Made by a program: the position numbers. A stretch of 64,000 bases of DNA from assembly GCF_988242995.1 (NCBI RefSeq), contig NZ_OZ547043.1; one strand, given 5' to 3'. Of this stretch, positions 15,001 through 21,000 are shown piece by piece. Position 1 is the stretch's first letter; the number at the start of each line of letters is the position of its first letter.

Positions 15001-18000
15001 TTACCGACAAGAAGGGAAAGGGCCTTCCCGAGAGTGGTAAAGGAGAGGCCCTGGAAATACCCCACAGCCCCGAAAAAGAGCCAGTCAGTTGCTTAACTGA
15101 CTGGCATTACAACTATCTGCCCCGCTTTTTTTGCCACCCACGCCTGCCAGATGATATGGTCCGTCCCCGGATTTTTCGCAGACAAATGCTCGTTGCGTTC
15201 AATGAATAAAGGGGGTATCCAGTTTGGATCGTCGGGATAAAGTGATGACGGAAAAGCGATAAATGCCTTAAGGTCATTTTTATTAATTACTTTTTCAATT
15301 TTAATCATCAGCAGATCGCATTCCATAGTTCTGTGGGTAACAAATAATTAACGGTGACAAACAGGTTGCAACAGCAACGAACGGCACCTTAATAATCAAC
15401 CCAATGAATACAAACGACGAATAAATAGTATTTATTAATGATTACGATAAGGTTAGAGACTACACAGAAGCGCCACAATGCCTTTTGTCGATTTAAGGCG
15501 ACCGGACAAGGCTTATTCTTAATATATTCATAAATTAAATATCATTCACAATAAAAACAAAAAAACTCAAACTCATTATTTAAATCAATGTTCATTTTCA
15601 CACTGATGAAAATACTATCTCATTTATCTTTTATGCCTATATAATCCACCGCATTATTGTCATTTTATTTTTGATATCCAATTTTTTCGTGGTGTATATG
15701 TCTAATAAAATCTTTACGCATTCCCTACCTATGCGCTATGCCGATTTTCCAACGCTGGTTGATGCTTTGGACTACGCCGCTCTGAGTAGCGCCGGAATGA
15801 ATTTTTATGACAGACGTTGCCAACTTGAAGATCAACTGGAATATCAGACGTTAAAAGCGCGTGCCGAAGCTGGTGCGAAGCGGTTGTTATCGCTGAACCT
15901 GAAAAAAGGCGATCGCGTGGCGCTGATTGCCGAAACCAGTAGCGGGTTCGTAGAGGCTTTTTTTTCCTGCCAGTATGCCGGCTTAGTCGCCGTCCCGTTG
16001 GCGATTCCAATGGGCGTCGGTCAGCGGGATTCCTGGAGCGCCAAACTGCAGGGTTTACTGGCAAGTTGCCAGCCCGCAGCCATTATCACTGGTGATGAGT
16101 GGTTACCGCTGGTCAATGCCGCGACGCATAACAACAACCCCGAATTACATGTTTTAAGCCACGCCTGGTTTAAGGCATTACCGGAAGCCGATGTTGCGCT
16201 CCAGCGTCCAGTTCCGAACGATATCGCCTACCTCCAGTACACCTCCGGCAGCACCCGTTTTCCCCGTGGCGTCATTATCACCCATCGCGAAGTGATGGCT
16301 AATCTACGTGCTATAAGCCACGATGGCATTAAATTACGCCCTGGCGACCGCTGCGTCTCCTGGCTGCCTTTCTACCATGATATGGGACTGGTCGGCTTTC
16401 TCCTGACCCCCGTCGCCACGCAGCTCTCAGTAGATTATTTGCGCACTCAGGATTTTGCCATGCGTCCTCTGCAATGGCTTAAATTGATCAGTAAAAATCG
16501 CGGCACCGTTTCCGTTGCGCCGCCGTTTGGCTATGAATTGTGCCAGCGCCGCGTGAATGAAAAAGATCTCGCTGAACTGGATCTTTCCTGCTGGCGCGTT
16601 GCTGGTATTGGTGCTGAGCCGATCTCCGCAGAACAACTCCATCAATTCGCTGAATGTTTCCGTCAGGTTAACTTTGACGATAAAACTTTCATGCCGTGCT
16701 ACGGACTGGCAGAAAATGCGCTGGCTGTCAGCTTCTCTGATGAAGCCTCCGGGGTTGTGGTTAACGAAGTGGATCGCGACATCCTTGAATATCAGGGCAA
16801 AGCCGTCGCGCCGGGTGCTGAAACACGCGCCGTATCGACTTTCGTCAACTGCGGTAAAGCGTTGCCGGAACATGGCATTGAAATCCGCAATGAAGCAGGT
16901 ATGCCGGTCGCGGAACGTGTGGTAGGCCATATTTGCATCTCCGGCCCTAGCCTGATGAGCGGTTACTTTGGCGACCAGATTTCACAAGACGAGATTGCCG
17001 CGACGGGCTGGTTAGACACCGGCGACCTCGGTTATCTGCTGGACGGTTATCTGTATGTCACCGGACGCATTAAAGATCTGATTATTATTCGTGGCCGTAA
17101 TATCTGGCCGCAGGATATTGAATATATTGCGGAACAGGAACCGGAAATTCATTCTGGCGATGCGATTGCTTTTGTTACCGCCCAGGAAAAAATCATTCTG
17201 CAGATCCAGTGTAGGATCAGCGACGAAGAACGTCGTGGGCAGCTTATCCACGCACTGGTAGCACGGATCCAAAGCGAATTTGGCGTAACAGCGGCTATCG
17301 ATCTGTTGCCGCCCCACAGTATTCCCCGAACGTCCTCCGGCAAGCCTGCCCGTGCGGAAGCGAAAAAACGTTATCAGAAGGCTTATGCTGCAAGCCTTCA
17401 TGTGCAGGAATCCCTGGCATGAATCAAACTGTCGCGGTGACGGGCGCTACCGGGTTTATCGGTAAATATATTATCGATAACCTGCTCGCCCGCGGCTTTC
17501 ACGTTCGCGCATTGACGCGTACTGCCCGCGCTCACGTCAATGACAATCTCATCTGGGTGCGCGGTTCTCTGGAAGATACTCATTCACTTAGCGAACTGGT
17601 TGCCGGAGCCAGCGCGGTGGTCCATTGCGCCGGACAAGTGCGCGGGCACAAAGAAGAGATTTTTACCCGCTGTAACGTTGACGGCAGCCTGCGACTGATG
17701 CAAGCGGCAAAAGAGAGCGGCTTTTGCCAACGTTTTCTGTTTATCTCTTCGCTGGCGGCGCGCCATCCCGAACTCTCCTGGTACGCAAATTCCAAACACG
17801 TCGCCGAACAACGGCTGACTGCAATGGCTGATGAAATTACGCTGGGCGTTTTTCGTCCGACAGCCGTGTATGGTCCCGGCGATAAAGAGTTAAAACCGCT
17901 GTTTGACTGGATGCTGCGCGGCCTGCTGCCACGACTTGGTGCGCCAGATACACAACTCTCTTTCCTGCACGTCACCGATTTTGCGCAAGCAGTGGGTCAG

Positions 18001-21000
18001 TGGTTAAACGCCGAAACTGTACAGACGCAAACCTATGAATTATGCGATGGCGTCGCTGGCGGCTATGACTGGCAACGCGTACGACAGCTTGCCGCCGAAG
18101 CCCGTTGTGGTTCTGTGCGGATGGTTGGCATTCCTCTGCCGCTACTCACCTGCCTTGCGGATATCAGTACTGCGTTGAGTCGCCTGGCAGGTAAAGAACC
18201 TATGCTGACCCGCTCGAAAATTCGTGAATTAACCCACGCCGACTGGTCGGCAAATAATAACCGTATTTCTGAAGATATTAATTGGTTTCCCGGGATTAGC
18301 CTGGAACACGCATTACGCAACGGGCTATTTTGATTGTCTTGTTTAAAGGTGTGTTAACGTTTCTATGGTAAATCGTGAAATAGTAATGGATTACATCCTT
18401 TCCTGTTTACAGGATTTGGTCGAAAACGGTGTGGAAATTAAGCCCGACAGCGATCTCGTCAACGATCTTGGCCTGGAGTCGATCAAAGTGATGGATCTCT
18501 TAATGATGCTGGAAGACAGATTCGATATTTCCATTCCTATTAATATTCTGCTGGATGTCAAAACCCCTGCGCAATTAATGGAAACACTACTTCCATGGCT
18601 GGAGAATAAATAATGGGGCTATACGATAAATATGCGCGCCTTGCTGGCGAGCGACTGCAATTTAGTGACAACGGGTTAACACCGTTTGGCACCTGTATTG
18701 ATGAAGTGTATTCCGCCACCGAAGGTCGGATCGGCAATAAAAAAGTGATTCTGGCCGGGACCAATAATTATCTCGGTTTAACCTTTAATCATGATGCCAT
18801 CGCCGAAGGTCAGGCAGCATTAGCGGCCCAAGGCACCGGCACCACCGGTTCTCGTATGGCAAACGGCAGTTATGCGCCGCATCTGGCGTTAGAGAAAGAG
18901 ATCGCCGAGTTTTTTAATCGCCCTACCGCTATCGTTTTTTCAACCGGTTATACCGCTAATTTAGGCGTCATCAGCGCACTTGCCGACCATAACGCCGTGG
19001 TGTTACTGGATGCCGACAGCCACGCCAGTATTTATGACGCCTGTTCTCTCGGTGGCGCGGAAATTATTCGTTTCCGCCATAACGATGCTAAAGATCTGGA
19101 ACGGCGCATGGTTCGCCTCGGTGAACGGGCAAAAGAGGCGATTATCATCGTTGAAGGCATCTACAGTATGCTCGGTGACGTTGCGCCGCTGGCGGAAATT
19201 GTTGATATCAAACGTCGTCTCGGTGGTTATTTGATTGTCGATGAAGCGCATTCGTTTGGCGTGTTAGGCGCAACGGGGCGCGGACTGGCTGAAGCCGTTG
19301 GCGTTGAAGATGATGTGGATATTATCGTTGGTACTTTCAGTAAAAGTCTGGCCTCGATTGGCGGTTTTGCTGTCGGTTCGGAAGCGATGGAAGTGCTGCG
19401 CTACGGCAGCCGCCCGTATATTTTTACCGCCTCTCCTTCTCCGTCCTGCATTGCGACCGTGCGCTCGTCGTTAAGAACCATTGCTACACAACCAGAGTTG
19501 CGGCAAAAGCTGATGGATAATGCCAACCATCTGTATGACGGTCTGCAAAAACTGGGTTATGAGTTAAGTTCACATATTAGCCCGGTAGTGCCAGTAATAA
19601 TCGGTTCGAAAGAGGAAGGTTTACGCATCTGGCGCGAGCTTATTTCGCTGGGCGTTTATGTGAATCTTATCCTGCCACCTGCCGCGCCTGCAGGCATCAC
19701 GCTGCTGCGCTGTAGCGTAAACGCTGCCCACAGTCGTGAGCAAATCGATGCCATCATTCAGGCATTTGCTACTCTGAAGCAGTAATGTGAGCCCGCTGTG
19801 GTGCTGCGCCACGGCGGGTTTAATGTTGACTGTCATACCAATACACCAGGCTCAACGCCACCAGCACAAACACTATCGGTAAACCGAGCGCGGTAACAGG
19901 TGCGCTCAACGCAAATAACAATCCCAGATTGACCATGATTTGATAGCTGATCCAGGTGAGTAAGCCAACGATGACGCCTACAGCGAGACGGCTACCCATC
20001 CCTGGCGAGCGCGGGGCGCTAAAGGTAAACGGCACAGCCAGCAAAATCATCGCCAGAGTTAAGATGGGTTGCCCCAGTTTTTCCCACAGTGCAAGGCGGT
20101 AATCGCTGCTGGGTTGCCCGGTTTCCTGCAAATAATGGATGTAATGATTAAGCTGACGGACAGAAAAAGTATTCCCCGGCATCGATAACTCTTCAAGATC
20201 CATACTGGTGAAGGCCGATTGCCAGGCAAGATTATCTGATGTTTCCAGCGTTTCTTTGCCATTCAACCATTTTTTATGATTCACACCATGCAGGATCCAC
20301 GTTTTGTCGTCTTCAATGGAGGCACTGCGTGCAAAAATGTAGGATTCGAGCGAGAGATCGTCGCGATAATGAAATATCTCCACGCCCACAGGCTGGCCCT
20401 GCTCGTTCAGCGATTTCACCGTCACAAATTCATTACCGCGCCTGGCCCAAAGCATATTGCCGGTAATGTCATCGTCCTCCCCCAACGCGGTGGCAGTCGA
20501 TTTGATTTGCAGCGCCTGTTGCTGCAATGGCGACGCCACCCACTCATCTATCGCGCCTAACGAAACAGTCCACAATATCCCGGCAACCAGCGCCACCAGT
20601 GCAATACGGAAGATAGAAAACCCAGTGCTGCGAATGGCGGTAAGCTCACTGTTTTTCGATAACTGCCCCAGGCCAACAATCCCTCCCAATAATGCGATAA
20701 ACGGCGAAAGTTCGACCAGTGTACGCGGTAAGGTCATCAGCACCACCAGCACCGCCTGAGTCCAGCGATAACCACCCGGGCTGACATCATCCAGTTCGTT
20801 AATCAGGTTGAAGGTGGTAAAAAGCGGCAGCAATAGCCCTGCGGCGGCGGCAAAACCGAGAAAGAGATGACGGATTAAATAGCGACTGAAAACATTCATC
20901 GGGAAAATTTCTGCAGCAATGAGAAGTCGCGTGCGACCAGCATCAGCAGGCCCATTAGCATGAGTCCGGGTACTAACCACAAACCAGGAATGAGGGGAAT

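What the first reader, a model, noticed from the sequence alone, without database searches (positions are those of the whole stretch)
17419..18333. Epimerase/dehydratase-fold reductase translationally coupled to the ligase (CerR-like candidate)
GATGFIG and YANSK motifs place it in the extended SDR family, and it is coupled by ATGA to the upstream gene. In the Caulobacter pathway the ketone reduction is reported to be done by an enzyme of this fold, so this is the candidate 3-keto reductase of the E. coli module.
Basis: partly seen in the sequence, partly recalled or inferred. Interest (0 to 1): 0.5.

Follow-up and report, generated by a model that had tools for sequence, protein, structure and literature searches.

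The report
E. coli CerR-type sphingolipid ketoreductase gene
This intact gene is the E. coli counterpart of the bacterial ceramide-pathway ketoreductase CerR, sitting in the conserved operon that makes the sphingolipid precursor; that assignment was already published in 2022 as an untested prediction, so the finding is correct but not new.

Summary
Window 17419..18333 (+) is an intact 304-aa ORF. Its ATG overlaps the TGA of the upstream fatty acyl-AMP ligase gene (ATGA, 17419-17422). It carries GATGFIG (residues 9-15) and YANSK (122-126).

The gene lies in the order aasR-SDR-acpR-spt, as Caulobacter does with CC_1165-CC_1162. This order recurs in most of 80 genomes from several bacterial phyla. 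A profile built only from non-enterobacterial spt-linked homologues scores the protein at 357 bits over its full length. The same profile gives 133 bits to the best solved structure (an NDUFA9-like complex I subunit) and 58 bits to E. coli GalE. The Asn-Ser-Tyr-Lys catalytic set is invariant across the family. Within E. coli, dN/dS is about 0.1.

It is therefore a CerR-family NAD(P)H 3-ketoreductase, not a sugar-nucleotide epimerase. Padilla-Gómez et al. 2022 (PMC9386255) already named the BL21 copy (ECD_02852) as the presumptive keto-sphinganine reductase, so the finding is already known. Enzyme activity remains untested.

Three points are additional. In this strain the ceramide-synthase gene yghO is split by a strain-specific IS4. 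The protein has no signal peptide, although Caulobacter CerR is reported to be periplasmic. Arg34 suggests NADPH as cofactor.

The parts
17419..18333 (+). CerR-family extended-SDR gene (304 aa; orthologue of E. coli BL21 ECD_02852 and Caulobacter CC_1164)
   Evidence: ORF. Pfam Epimerase E 2.6e-23. 357 bits to the profile of spt-linked homologues. AF2 pLDDT 97.3. The protein is identical to WP_085459843.1 of E. coli O158:H23.
17419..17422 (+). ATGA overlap: start codon of the SDR gene and stop codon of aasR (translational coupling)
   Evidence: Read from the sequence and the ORF ends.
17406..17409 (+). Shine-Dalgarno-like AGGA, 9 nt upstream of the ATG, inside the end of aasR
   Evidence: Sequence.
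17443..17463 (+). GATGFIG, the GxxGxxG dinucleotide-binding motif (G9, G12, F13 and G15 invariant in 100 family members)
17782..17796 (+). YANSK, the catalytic Tyr122-x3-Lys126. With Ser110 and Asn86 it forms the SDR catalytic tetrad, all four invariant in 100 of 100 family members.
15671..17422 (+). aasR: fatty acyl-AMP ligase / specialised acyl-ACP synthetase (RefSeq uses a start 27 nt downstream, at 15698)
   Evidence: NCBIfam NF006624 at 870 bits, above its cut-off of 600. RefSeq name. Function of the BL21 orthologue ECD_02851 shown in PMC9386255.
18365..18613 (+). acpR: specialised acyl carrier protein
   Evidence: Pfam PP-binding E 1.3e-13. The BL21 orthologue ECD_02853 was shown to carry 4'-phosphopantetheine.
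18613..19785 (+). spt: serine palmitoyltransferase. Its ATG overlaps the acpR stop codon by one base.
   Evidence: NCBIfam NF047599 at 600 bits, above its cut-off of 500. RefSeq gene name spt. The BL21 enzyme was assayed in PMC9386255.
15110..15326 (-). 5' fragment of yghO (published bacterial ceramide synthase / N-acyltransferase orthologue), cut off by IS4
   Evidence: Orthology to CC_1154 (44% identity) is from PMC9386255.
12745..13683 (-). 3' fragment of yghO
   Evidence: Removing IS4 and one copy of the target duplication restores an intact 380-aa frame.
13684..15109 (+). IS4 copy inserted in yghO, with 18-nt terminal inverted repeats and a 13-bp target duplication CAACTATCTGCCC at 13671-13683 and 15110-15122
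   Evidence: Repeats. Transposase matches NF033592 at 299.5 bits and Pfam Nterm_IS4 plus DDE_Tnp_1. The insertion is absent from all 5426 complete E. coli genomes.
19820..21966 (-). Second LptG/LptF paralogue pair (19820..20980 and 20896..21966), convergent with the operon; probable sphingolipid export module
   Evidence: Pfam LptF_LptG. Found beside the SDR in 23-25 of 80 loci. Caulobacter LptF2/LptG2 are described in PMC11324152.

Best explanation
The gene encodes the E. coli member of the CerR family. This is a soluble, roughly 300-residue extended-SDR (NDUFA9-like) oxidoreductase. It most likely uses NAD(P)H to reduce the C3 ketone of the sphingoid backbone made by the neighbouring AasR/AcpR/Spt module. 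AasR loads a fatty acid onto AcpR, and Spt condenses acyl-AcpR with serine to give 3-oxosphinganine; both steps were shown for the BL21 proteins in PMC9386255. The SDR would then deliver a hydride to C3, with Tyr122 as the acid, Lys126 and Asn86 positioning the cofactor, and Ser110 polarising the carbonyl. This step is inferred from conserved residues and from orthology. The product would be sphinganine if the enzyme acts before YghO (the Geiger-laboratory order), or dihydroceramide if it acts after (the Klein-laboratory order). The enzyme is made in step with AasR through the ATGA overlap. It has no signal peptide, so by sequence it should work on the cytoplasmic side. Arg34, with no acidic residue at the end of strand beta-2, suggests NADPH as cofactor (inferred). 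In this particular strain yghO is split by IS4. The pathway should therefore stop at the long-chain base: at sphinganine if CerR accepts free 3-oxosphinganine, or at 3-oxosphinganine if it needs the N-acylated form.
For: The ORF, the ATGA coupling and both motifs are present. The operon order aasR-SDR-acpR-spt is identical to Caulobacter CC_1165-CC_1162. In 80 genome loci holding a homologue, AasR lies directly upstream in 65, Spt downstream in 65, AcpR is present in 61 and a YghO-like gene in 35. These loci span gamma-, beta- and alpha-proteobacteria, Desulfobacterales, Geobacter and Nitrospira. The set includes Nitrosomonas eutropha, whose Neut_0459 is a published CerR orthologue. Profile A2, built from 40 non-enterobacterial spt-linked homologues, scores the window protein at 357 bits, E 6e-106, over 298 of 298 profile positions. 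The same profile gives 132.7 bits to the best PDB chain (9g83_P, a bacterial NDUFA9-like subunit), 62-99 bits to mitochondrial NDUFA9 chains and 57.9 bits to E. coli GalE. G9, G12, G15, N86, S110, Y122 and K126 are invariant in 100 of 100 diverse members. The AF2 model has pLDDT 97.3, and the highest TM-scores (0.80-0.82) are to NDUFA9 homologues, against 0.71-0.75 for sugar epimerases. This matches the NDUFA9 homology reported for Caulobacter CerR. dN/dS is 0.08-0.12 among E. coli alleles. The four-gene block is present in 4067 of 5426 complete E. coli genomes. Published data add a BLAST of CC_1164 against ECD_02852 (34% identity, 94% coverage, E 7e-38), the observation that BL21 making 3-oxosphinganine also forms spots migrating like sphinganine and ceramide, and the authors' own proposal that ECD_02852 is the reductase.
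Against: No enzyme assay or knockout exists for the E. coli protein; the BL21 evidence is co-migration on TLC only. I could not retrieve the Caulobacter CC_1164 sequence, so the link to the genetically characterised protein rests on the published BLAST table and on synteny. No NCBIfam model reaches its cut-off. The best matches are HpnA (91 bits against a cut-off of 368) and OleD (66 bits against 580), and RefSeq calls the protein only 'NAD-dependent epimerase/dehydratase family protein'. Caulobacter CerR is reported to be periplasmic, which the signal-less N-terminus here neither explains nor matches. E. coli has not been reported to make sphingolipids from this chromosomal cluster without overexpression of pathway genes, and K-12 and about a quarter of strains lack the cluster.
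Confidence: 0.8

Rival explanations
1. It is a genuine nucleotide-sugar 4-epimerase, dehydratase or reductase acting on envelope polysaccharide precursors, as the RefSeq product name and the neighbouring flippase-like yghQ might suggest.
For: Pfam Epimerase and GDP_Man_Dehyd match. Foldseek E-values to UDP-sugar epimerases (1e-19 to 1e-18) are as good as those to NDUFA9. The neighbour yghQ is a Polysacc_synt / MOP flippase-type protein.
Against: GalE TIGR01179 scores 30 bits against a cut-off of 262, and dTDP-glucose dehydratase scores 24 bits against 365; both align only to the N-terminal Rossmann half, residues 5-113. The family profile gives E. coli GalE 58 bits against 357 for this protein. 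TM-scores to the epimerases are lower, 0.71-0.75 against 0.80-0.82. No acidic residue ends strand beta-2; Arg34 follows instead, in 89 of 100 members. The gene sits between an acyl-ACP synthetase and an ACP/Spt pair in 61-65 of 80 genomes, not among sugar genes.
Confidence: 0.04
2. It is a thioester (acyl-ACP) reductase that releases the AasR-loaded acyl chain from AcpR as an aldehyde, as the terminal reductase domains of FAAL-ACP-R systems do.
For: Pfam NAD_binding_4 (male-sterility / fatty acyl reductase) matches at E 1.7e-15, and TIGR01746 thioester-reductase matches at E 3.3e-10. The gene is translationally coupled to a FAAL and lies next to an ACP.
Against: The TIGR01746 match covers only residues 4-36 and scores 39.7 bits against a cut-off of 213. 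Acyl-AcpR was shown to be the substrate consumed by Spt in the BL21 and Caulobacter systems, so no reductive release is needed. A Caulobacter cerR mutant accumulates oxidised ceramide, which points to a ketone substrate.
Confidence: 0.03
3. It is a non-catalytic NDUFA9/NmrA-like protein that binds a nucleotide and acts as a structural or regulatory partner, or it is a decaying remnant with no current role in E. coli.
For: The closest solved relatives are NDUFA9 accessory subunits of complex I. NmrA-like Pfam matches at E 3.3e-16. Native E. coli sphingolipids are undocumented. In this strain the partner gene yghO is already inactivated by IS4.
Against: The full Asn-Ser-Tyr-Lys tetrad and GxxGxxG are invariant in 100 of 100 family members and present here. 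dN/dS is 0.08-0.12 and the frame is intact. The cluster is retained in 75% of complete E. coli genomes and across Enterobacterales. The IS4 insertion in yghO is strain-specific and looks recent, because the frame is fully restorable.
Confidence: 0.08

Closest known systems
CerR (bacterial ceramide reductase; Caulobacter crescentus CC_1164 / cerR) and its published E. coli BL21(DE3) orthologue ECD_02852 ('epi')
   Same: Both share the extended-SDR/NDUFA9-like fold, the same operon position between aasR and acpR-spt, and a divergent yghO/cerS neighbour. The published figures are 34% identity over 94% of the length. The window gene is the same locus as ECD_02852 in a different E. coli strain.
   Different: Caulobacter CerR was characterised genetically (the mutant accumulates oxidised ceramide) and is reported to be periplasmic and peripherally bound to the inner membrane. 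The E. coli protein is untested. It begins directly with the Rossmann strand, with no signal peptide. In this strain it lacks a functional ceramide synthase partner.
NDUFA9 / NUEM 39-kDa subunit of respiratory complex I, including the alphaproteobacterial homologue in PDB 9g83 chain P
   Same: It is the closest solved structure by sequence (E 7.7e-13; 132.7 bits to the family profile) and by TM-score (0.80-0.82). Both are roughly 300-residue extended SDRs that bind NAD(P)H.
   Different: NDUFA9 is an accessory subunit of complex I. The family studied here is a separate clade: 357 bits against 62-133 bits to the same profile. It is linked to spt rather than to nuo genes.
OleD (2-alkyl-3-oxoalkanoate reductase, NF042422)
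   Same: The alignment is full-length (residues 5-299 against 3-321 of 329 profile positions, E 2.7e-18). Both are extended SDRs, and by name OleD reduces a 3-oxo group on a 2-substituted long-chain lipid, a chemically analogous reaction.
   Different: The score of 66 bits is far below the 580-bit cut-off, so it is not a member. The genomic context is different, with no ole genes nearby.
Eukaryotic 3-ketodihydrosphingosine reductase (KDSR/FVT1, Tsc10) and the Bacteroides candidate BT_0972
   Same: They catalyse the same proposed step, NAD(P)H reduction of 3-ketosphinganine; BT_0972 reduces it in vitro.
   Different: Eukaryotic KDSR is an intrinsic membrane protein. From my own knowledge, not tested here, it is a classical rather than an extended SDR. 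The Caulobacter authors state that bacterial CerR lacks eukaryotic orthologues, so the resemblance would be functional convergence rather than homology.
UDP-glucose 4-epimerase GalE (TIGR01179)
   Same: Both have the extended-SDR fold and the TGxxGxxG and YxxxK motifs.
   Different: GalE scores 30 bits against a cut-off of 262, and only the N-terminal half aligns. The cofactor-specificity residues and the genomic context both differ.

Membership tests
CerR family (spt-linked NDUFA9-like SDR; CC_1164 orthologues) | Extended-SDR fold of about 300 residues with an N-terminal GxxGxxG NAD(P)-binding motif | tested here: met
   Pfam Epimerase E 2.6e-23. The AF2 model has pLDDT 97.3 and shows a Rossmann beta-alpha pattern. 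Foldseek hits are all extended SDRs. G9, G12 and G15 are invariant.
CerR family (spt-linked NDUFA9-like SDR; CC_1164 orthologues) | Catalytic Ser-Tyr-Lys (plus Asn) retained | tested here: met
   N86, S110, Y122 and K126 are present and invariant in 100 of 100 diverse members.
CerR family (spt-linked NDUFA9-like SDR; CC_1164 orthologues) | Full-length sequence membership in the clade of SDRs encoded next to spt | tested here: met
   The protein scores 357 bits (E 6e-106) over 298 of 298 positions of a profile built from 40 non-enterobacterial spt-linked homologues. The next-best outgroup, PDB 9g83_P, scores 132.7 bits.
CerR family (spt-linked NDUFA9-like SDR; CC_1164 orthologues) | Direct sequence similarity to the genetically characterised Caulobacter CC_1164 | not tested
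   The CC_1164 sequence could not be retrieved. The published BLASTP of CC_1164 against the BL21 copy ECD_02852 gives E 7e-38, 34% identity and 94% coverage (PMC9386255 Supplementary Table 2). The window protein is 95-97% identical to the common E. coli alleles.
CerR family (spt-linked NDUFA9-like SDR; CC_1164 orthologues) | Genomic linkage aasR-cerR-acpR-spt, with cerS in a separate transcription unit | tested here: met
   The window has this order with coupled genes and a divergent yghO. It is the same order as CC_1165-CC_1162. It is conserved in 61-65 of 80 loci.
CerR family (spt-linked NDUFA9-like SDR; CC_1164 orthologues) | NAD(P)H-dependent reduction of the 3-keto group of 3-oxosphinganine or oxidised ceramide | not testable with these tools
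   The only indirect data are published: sphinganine- and ceramide-like TLC spots in BL21, and oxidised ceramide accumulating in a Caulobacter cerR mutant.
CerR family (spt-linked NDUFA9-like SDR; CC_1164 orthologues) | Periplasmic, inner-membrane-peripheral localisation (reported for the Caulobacter protein only) | tested here: inconclusive
   There is no N-terminal extension: only 8 residues precede G9, the family median is 8, and the maximum is 28 of 100. A classical Sec or Tat signal is therefore absent. Localisation itself cannot be tested with these tools.
UDP-glucose 4-epimerase / nucleotide-sugar extended SDRs | Score at or above the curated family cut-off, with an alignment that includes the C-terminal nucleotide-sugar-binding domain | tested here: not met
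   galE TIGR01179 scores 30 bits against 262; dTDP-glucose dehydratase 23.9 against 365; rmlD 18.9 against 224. All align only to about residues 5-113.
NDUFA9 (complex I 39-kDa subunit) | Clusters with complex I subunits rather than with the spt-linked clade | tested here: not met
   phmmer gives 45-51 bits to NDUFA9 chains. NDUFA9 chains score 62-133 bits to the spt-linked profile, against 357 for this protein. The neighbours are lipid-synthesis genes, not nuo genes.
Thioester reductase domain (TIGR01746) | Score at or above the cut-off with a full-domain alignment | tested here: not met
   It scores 39.7 bits against a cut-off of 213, and only residues 4-36 align.

The most novel reading that the evidence does not exclude
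Most E. coli strains (about 75% carry the intact block) can make a ceramide-type lipid under conditions not yet identified. In E. coli the signal-less, probably NADPH-dependent CerR would act in the cytoplasm on free 3-oxosphinganine, which is the eukaryote-like order. That would contradict the model of periplasmic reduction after acylation derived from Caulobacter. The IS4-disrupted yghO strain in this window would then be a natural ceramide-synthase knockout that accumulates free sphinganine when the operon is expressed. It would offer a simple genetic test of the disputed order of the two steps.
Probability: 0.2. Interest if true: 0.55.

Novelty: already known. Interest (0 to 1): 0.22.

Why it matters
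Bacterial sphingolipids were long thought to be rare. This cluster shows that the best-studied bacterium, apart from K-12, carries the complete ceramide gene set. The reductase is the least characterised step. Its substrate (free or N-acylated 3-ketosphinganine), its cofactor and its cellular compartment are disputed between two laboratories. An E. coli enzyme that is soluble, has no signal peptide and is easy to express would be a convenient system for settling these points. It could also show whether commensal and pathogenic E. coli expose hosts to ceramide-like lipids. For genome annotation, the result shows that the RefSeq product name 'NAD-dependent epimerase/dehydratase family protein' could be made more specific. 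The same applies to the plain LptF/LptG names given to the neighbouring paralogues.

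Tried and rejected
1. P0136 is a 794-aa protein that looked like a CerR-Spt fusion and hence Rosetta-stone evidence. I rejected it. In its contig (L081) acpR is encoded in a different frame inside the 'fusion', and residues 300-397 are low-complexity read-through, so it is a gene-calling artefact. The locus still shows the usual yghO | aasR-SDR-acpR-spt order.

2. I tried to read Stankeviciute et al. 2022 (Nat Chem Biol, PMC8891067), the primary CerR paper. It is not held, so CerR facts come from later papers by the same and the rival laboratory.

3. I did not obtain the Caulobacter CC_1164 sequence. The genome scan returned the best 80 loci and Caulobacter was not among them. 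I relied on the published BLAST table instead.

4. Foldseek E-values against the PDB do not separate NDUFA9-like proteins from sugar epimerases. Only the TM-scores and the profile scores discriminate between them.

5. The afdb50 fold library was unavailable.

6. Consensus promoter and terminator scans of 15100-20100 gave no more sites than shuffled sequence (8 promoter-like sites against 6.2 expected; 6 terminator-like sites against 5.9). They say nothing about operon boundaries.

7. Literature searches for native E. coli ceramide or for yghO together with ceramide found only PMC9386255.

Full report
**Observation.** The window holds an intact 304-aa ORF at 17419..18333 on the + strand.
An AGGA lies 9 nt upstream.
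- GATGFIG is residues 9-15 and YANSK is residues 122-126.
- The ORF is a real gene. Pfam Epimerase (PF01370) matches at E 2.6e-23, with weaker NmrA, NAD_binding_4, NAD_binding_10 and 3Beta_HSD matches.
- 5305 database proteins match at E<=1e-10, and 474 cluster representatives match at E<=1e-30 over the full length.
- The AlphaFold2 model has mean pLDDT 97.3.

**Surroundings.** The window is the glc-ygh region of an E. coli chromosome.
- The flanks of yghO are 99.9% identical to E. coli 18KM2445.
- The SDR protein is identical to WP_085459843.1 of E. coli O158:H23.
- The SDR gene is the second of four co-directional, tightly packed genes:
  - a fatty acyl-AMP ligase (NF006624, 870 bits);
  - the SDR;
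  - an 82-aa acyl carrier protein;
  - a PLP enzyme that passes NCBI's equivalog model for serine palmitoyltransferase (NF047599, 600 bits against a cut-off of 500).
- Convergent with these genes are a second LptG/LptF pair, a YtfJ-family gene, an unassigned 274-aa gene and the flippase-like yghQ.
- Divergent from the ligase gene is yghO.
- RefSeq annotates the four genes as 'fatty acyl-AMP ligase | NAD-dependent epimerase/dehydratase family protein | acyl carrier protein | spt'.
- The block is present in 4067 of 5426 complete E. coli genomes.

**What is already published.** Padilla-Gómez et al. 2022 (PMC9386255) studied exactly this locus in E. coli BL21(DE3).
- ECD_02851 is AasR, a specialised acyl-ACP synthetase. 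ECD_02853 is AcpR and ECD_02854 is SPT. All three were tested biochemically.
- ECD_02852, labelled 'epi', is listed as the orthologue of Caulobacter CC_1164. yghO (ECD_02850) is listed as the orthologue of the N-acyltransferase CC_1154.
- Their BLAST table gives CC_1164 against ECD_02852 as E 7e-38, 34% identity and 94% coverage.
- When 3-oxosphinganine was produced in BL21, spots migrating like sphinganine and ceramide also appeared. [quoted passage not shown]
- Later papers name CC_1164 CerR and give the Caulobacter operon order as aasR, cerR, acpR, spt, with cerS always in another transcription unit. They report NDUFA9 homology, accumulation of oxidised ceramide in a cerR mutant, and periplasmic localisation.

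**Independent tests: synteny.** A degenerate-pattern scan of one genome per species returned 80 loci that encode a homologue.
- tblastn with the window's proteins finds AasR immediately upstream in 65 loci and Spt 1-2 kb downstream in 65. AcpR lies between the SDR and spt in 61. A YghO-like gene is nearby in 35, and LptF/G paralogues in 23-25.
- The order aasR-SDR-acpR-spt holds in Enterobacterales, Pseudomonas, Nitrosomonas and Nitrosospira. This includes N. eutropha, where Neut_0458-0461 is the published cluster.
- It also holds in Xanthomonadales, several alphaproteobacteria, Desulfobacterales, Geobacter and Nitrospira.
- The exceptions are mostly Sphingomonadales. Published work has already noted that aasR and 'epi' are scattered across those genomes.

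**Independent tests: profile discrimination.** I built profile A2 from 40 spt-linked homologues and excluded all Enterobacterales.
- The window protein scores 357 bits over 298 of 298 profile positions.
- Against the PDB, the same profile gives 132.7 bits to 9g83_P, an alphaproteobacterial complex I NDUFA9-like subunit. It gives 62-99 bits to mitochondrial NDUFA9 and 57.9 bits to E. coli GalE.
The protein belongs to the spt-linked clade, its nearest solved relatives are NDUFA9-like, and it is far from the sugar epimerases.
- The curated models agree. galE scores 30 bits against a cut-off of 262 and aligns only over the N-terminal half.
- The best full-length curated neighbours are lipid-related: HpnA (hopanoid-associated) and OleD (2-alkyl-3-oxoalkanoate reductase). 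Both fall far below their cut-offs.

**Independent tests: catalytic competence.** In an alignment of 100 diverse family members, 16 columns are invariant: G9, G12, F13, G15, N86, S110, Y122, K126, E130, R146, G152, D155, D187, K267, E270 and W276. All 16 are present in the window protein.
- N86, S110, Y122 and K126 form the SDR catalytic tetrad.
- K267, E270 and W276 lie in a family-specific C-terminal motif. Its consensus is PMLTPGKVRELxHPDW, and the window protein reads PMLTRSKIRELTHADW.

**Independent tests: selection.** Nei-Gojobori dN/dS between the window allele and four diverged E. coli-labelled alleles is 0.08-0.12. The fifth allele compared, from strain O158:H23, encodes an identical protein.
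- The constraint is weaker than on spt (0.02-0.07) and glcD (0.01-0.04), but it is still purifying.

**Structure.** Foldseek against the PDB returns only extended SDRs.
- The E-values do not separate the subfamilies.
- TM-scores are highest for NDUFA9 homologues (0.80-0.82) and lower for nucleotide-sugar enzymes (0.71-0.75).
- No solved CerR structure turned up.

**Mechanism.**
- Shown in published work: AasR loads AcpR, and Spt makes 3-oxosphinganine.
- Inferred here: the SDR transfers a hydride from NAD(P)H to the C3 ketone, using Tyr122, Lys126, Ser110 and Asn86.
- The end of strand beta-2 carries no acidic residue. It is followed by Arg34, conserved in 89 of 100 members, with His in 8. Under the usual SDR cofactor rules (my own knowledge) this favours NADPH.
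- Only eight residues precede the first glycine of the Rossmann motif. The family median is also eight and the maximum is 28. There is therefore no classical signal peptide, and by sequence the enzyme should be cytoplasmic. This sits awkwardly with the periplasmic location reported for Caulobacter CerR, a puzzle those authors themselves acknowledge.
- Whether the substrate is free or N-acylated 3-oxosphinganine cannot be decided from sequence.
  - The gene shares an operon with the 3-oxosphinganine-forming genes and is separate from cerS. BL21 also shows a sphinganine-like TLC spot. Both lean toward the free base.
  - The Caulobacter mutant phenotype leans toward the acylated form.

**Strain-specific twist.** In this window yghO is split by an IS4 copy at 13684-15109.
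- The element has 18-nt terminal inverted repeats and a 13-bp target duplication, CAACTATCTGCCC.
- Its transposase matches NF033592 at 299.5 bits.
- None of the 5426 complete E. coli genomes carries this insertion.
- Removing IS4 and one duplication copy restores a 380-aa frame that differs by one residue from the closest allele. The event therefore looks recent.
- If YghO is the ceramide synthase, this strain cannot complete ceramide synthesis. The reductase would then act on the free base or have no substrate.

**Rivals.**
- Nucleotide-sugar enzyme: rejected on profile scores, partial alignments, cofactor residues and context.
- Thioester reductase: only residues 4-36 match TIGR01746, and acyl-AcpR is consumed by Spt.
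- Non-catalytic NDUFA9/NmrA-like protein or decaying remnant: argued against by the invariant catalytic residues, the purifying selection and the wide retention of the gene.

**Verdict.** The gene is the E. coli CerR orthologue. What remains open is the biochemistry: activity, substrate order, cofactor and compartment. Whether E. coli ever makes sphingolipids natively is also open. Interest is low to moderate.

Noticed in passing
window 12745-15326 (IS4 at 13684-15109): yghO, the published ceramide-synthase (bCerS/'aca') orthologue, is interrupted by an IS4 copy with 18-nt inverted repeats and a 13-bp target duplication. The insertion is absent from all 5426 complete E. coli genomes searched. 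The frame is fully restorable, so the insertion is recent and this strain is a natural ceramide-synthase knockout.
   Followed up: yes
window 12745-13683 and 15110-15326 (reconstructed YghO, 380 aa): YghO matches no Pfam-A or NCBIfam model at E<=0.01, although it is conserved next to the cluster in 35 of 80 genomes. The bacterial ceramide synthase family appears to have no model in either curated library.
   Followed up: partly
window 19820-21966 (- strand): A second LptG/LptF pair passes NCBI's equivalog cut-offs (307 and 318 bits), and RefSeq names it plain LptG/LptF. It is the cluster-linked paralogue pair, corresponding to LptF2/LptG2 in Caulobacter and proposed there to export sphingolipids. 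The annotation is probably an over-call of LPS function.
   Followed up: partly
window 24788-27157: Three adjacent thymidylate-kinase-like P-loop genes sit beside the cluster: yghR at 24788..25546 (-), yghS at 25578..26291 (-) and yghT at 26465..27157 (+). All score far below the dTMP-kinase cut-offs (25-31 bits against 83), yet RefSeq calls yghS 'dTMP kinase'. A role as lipid or head-group kinases is speculative.
   Followed up: no
window 22569-23393 (- strand): A 274-aa ORF has no Pfam or NCBIfam hit. It lies between the ytfJ-like gene and yghQ. It co-occurs with yghQ in Enterobacterales and also in the Luteibacter and Dyella loci (L014, L026) that carry the aasR-SDR-acpR-spt operon.
   Followed up: no
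L081 6001-8385 (MAG GCA_035690525.1): A called 794-aa 'SDR-Spt fusion' protein (P0136) is a gene-calling artefact. acpR is encoded in another frame inside it. The same contig carries a DAGK_cat (ceramide-kinase-like) gene and a yghO-like gene upstream.
   Followed up: yes
L001 (NZ_JAATUR010000001.1, titled Escherichia coli SCPM-O-B-8794): This record is only 87-94% identical in nucleotide sequence to the window across the cluster genes (dS 0.23-0.69). That is far more divergent than the other E. coli genomes and suggests a cryptic Escherichia lineage labelled as E. coli.
   Followed up: no
window 17419-18333 compared with its neighbours: Within E. coli the SDR gene is the fastest-evolving of the four biosynthetic genes. 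It shows 7-12 amino-acid differences in 304 residues and dN/dS of about 0.1, against 0-7 differences in 390 residues for Spt.
   Followed up: partly
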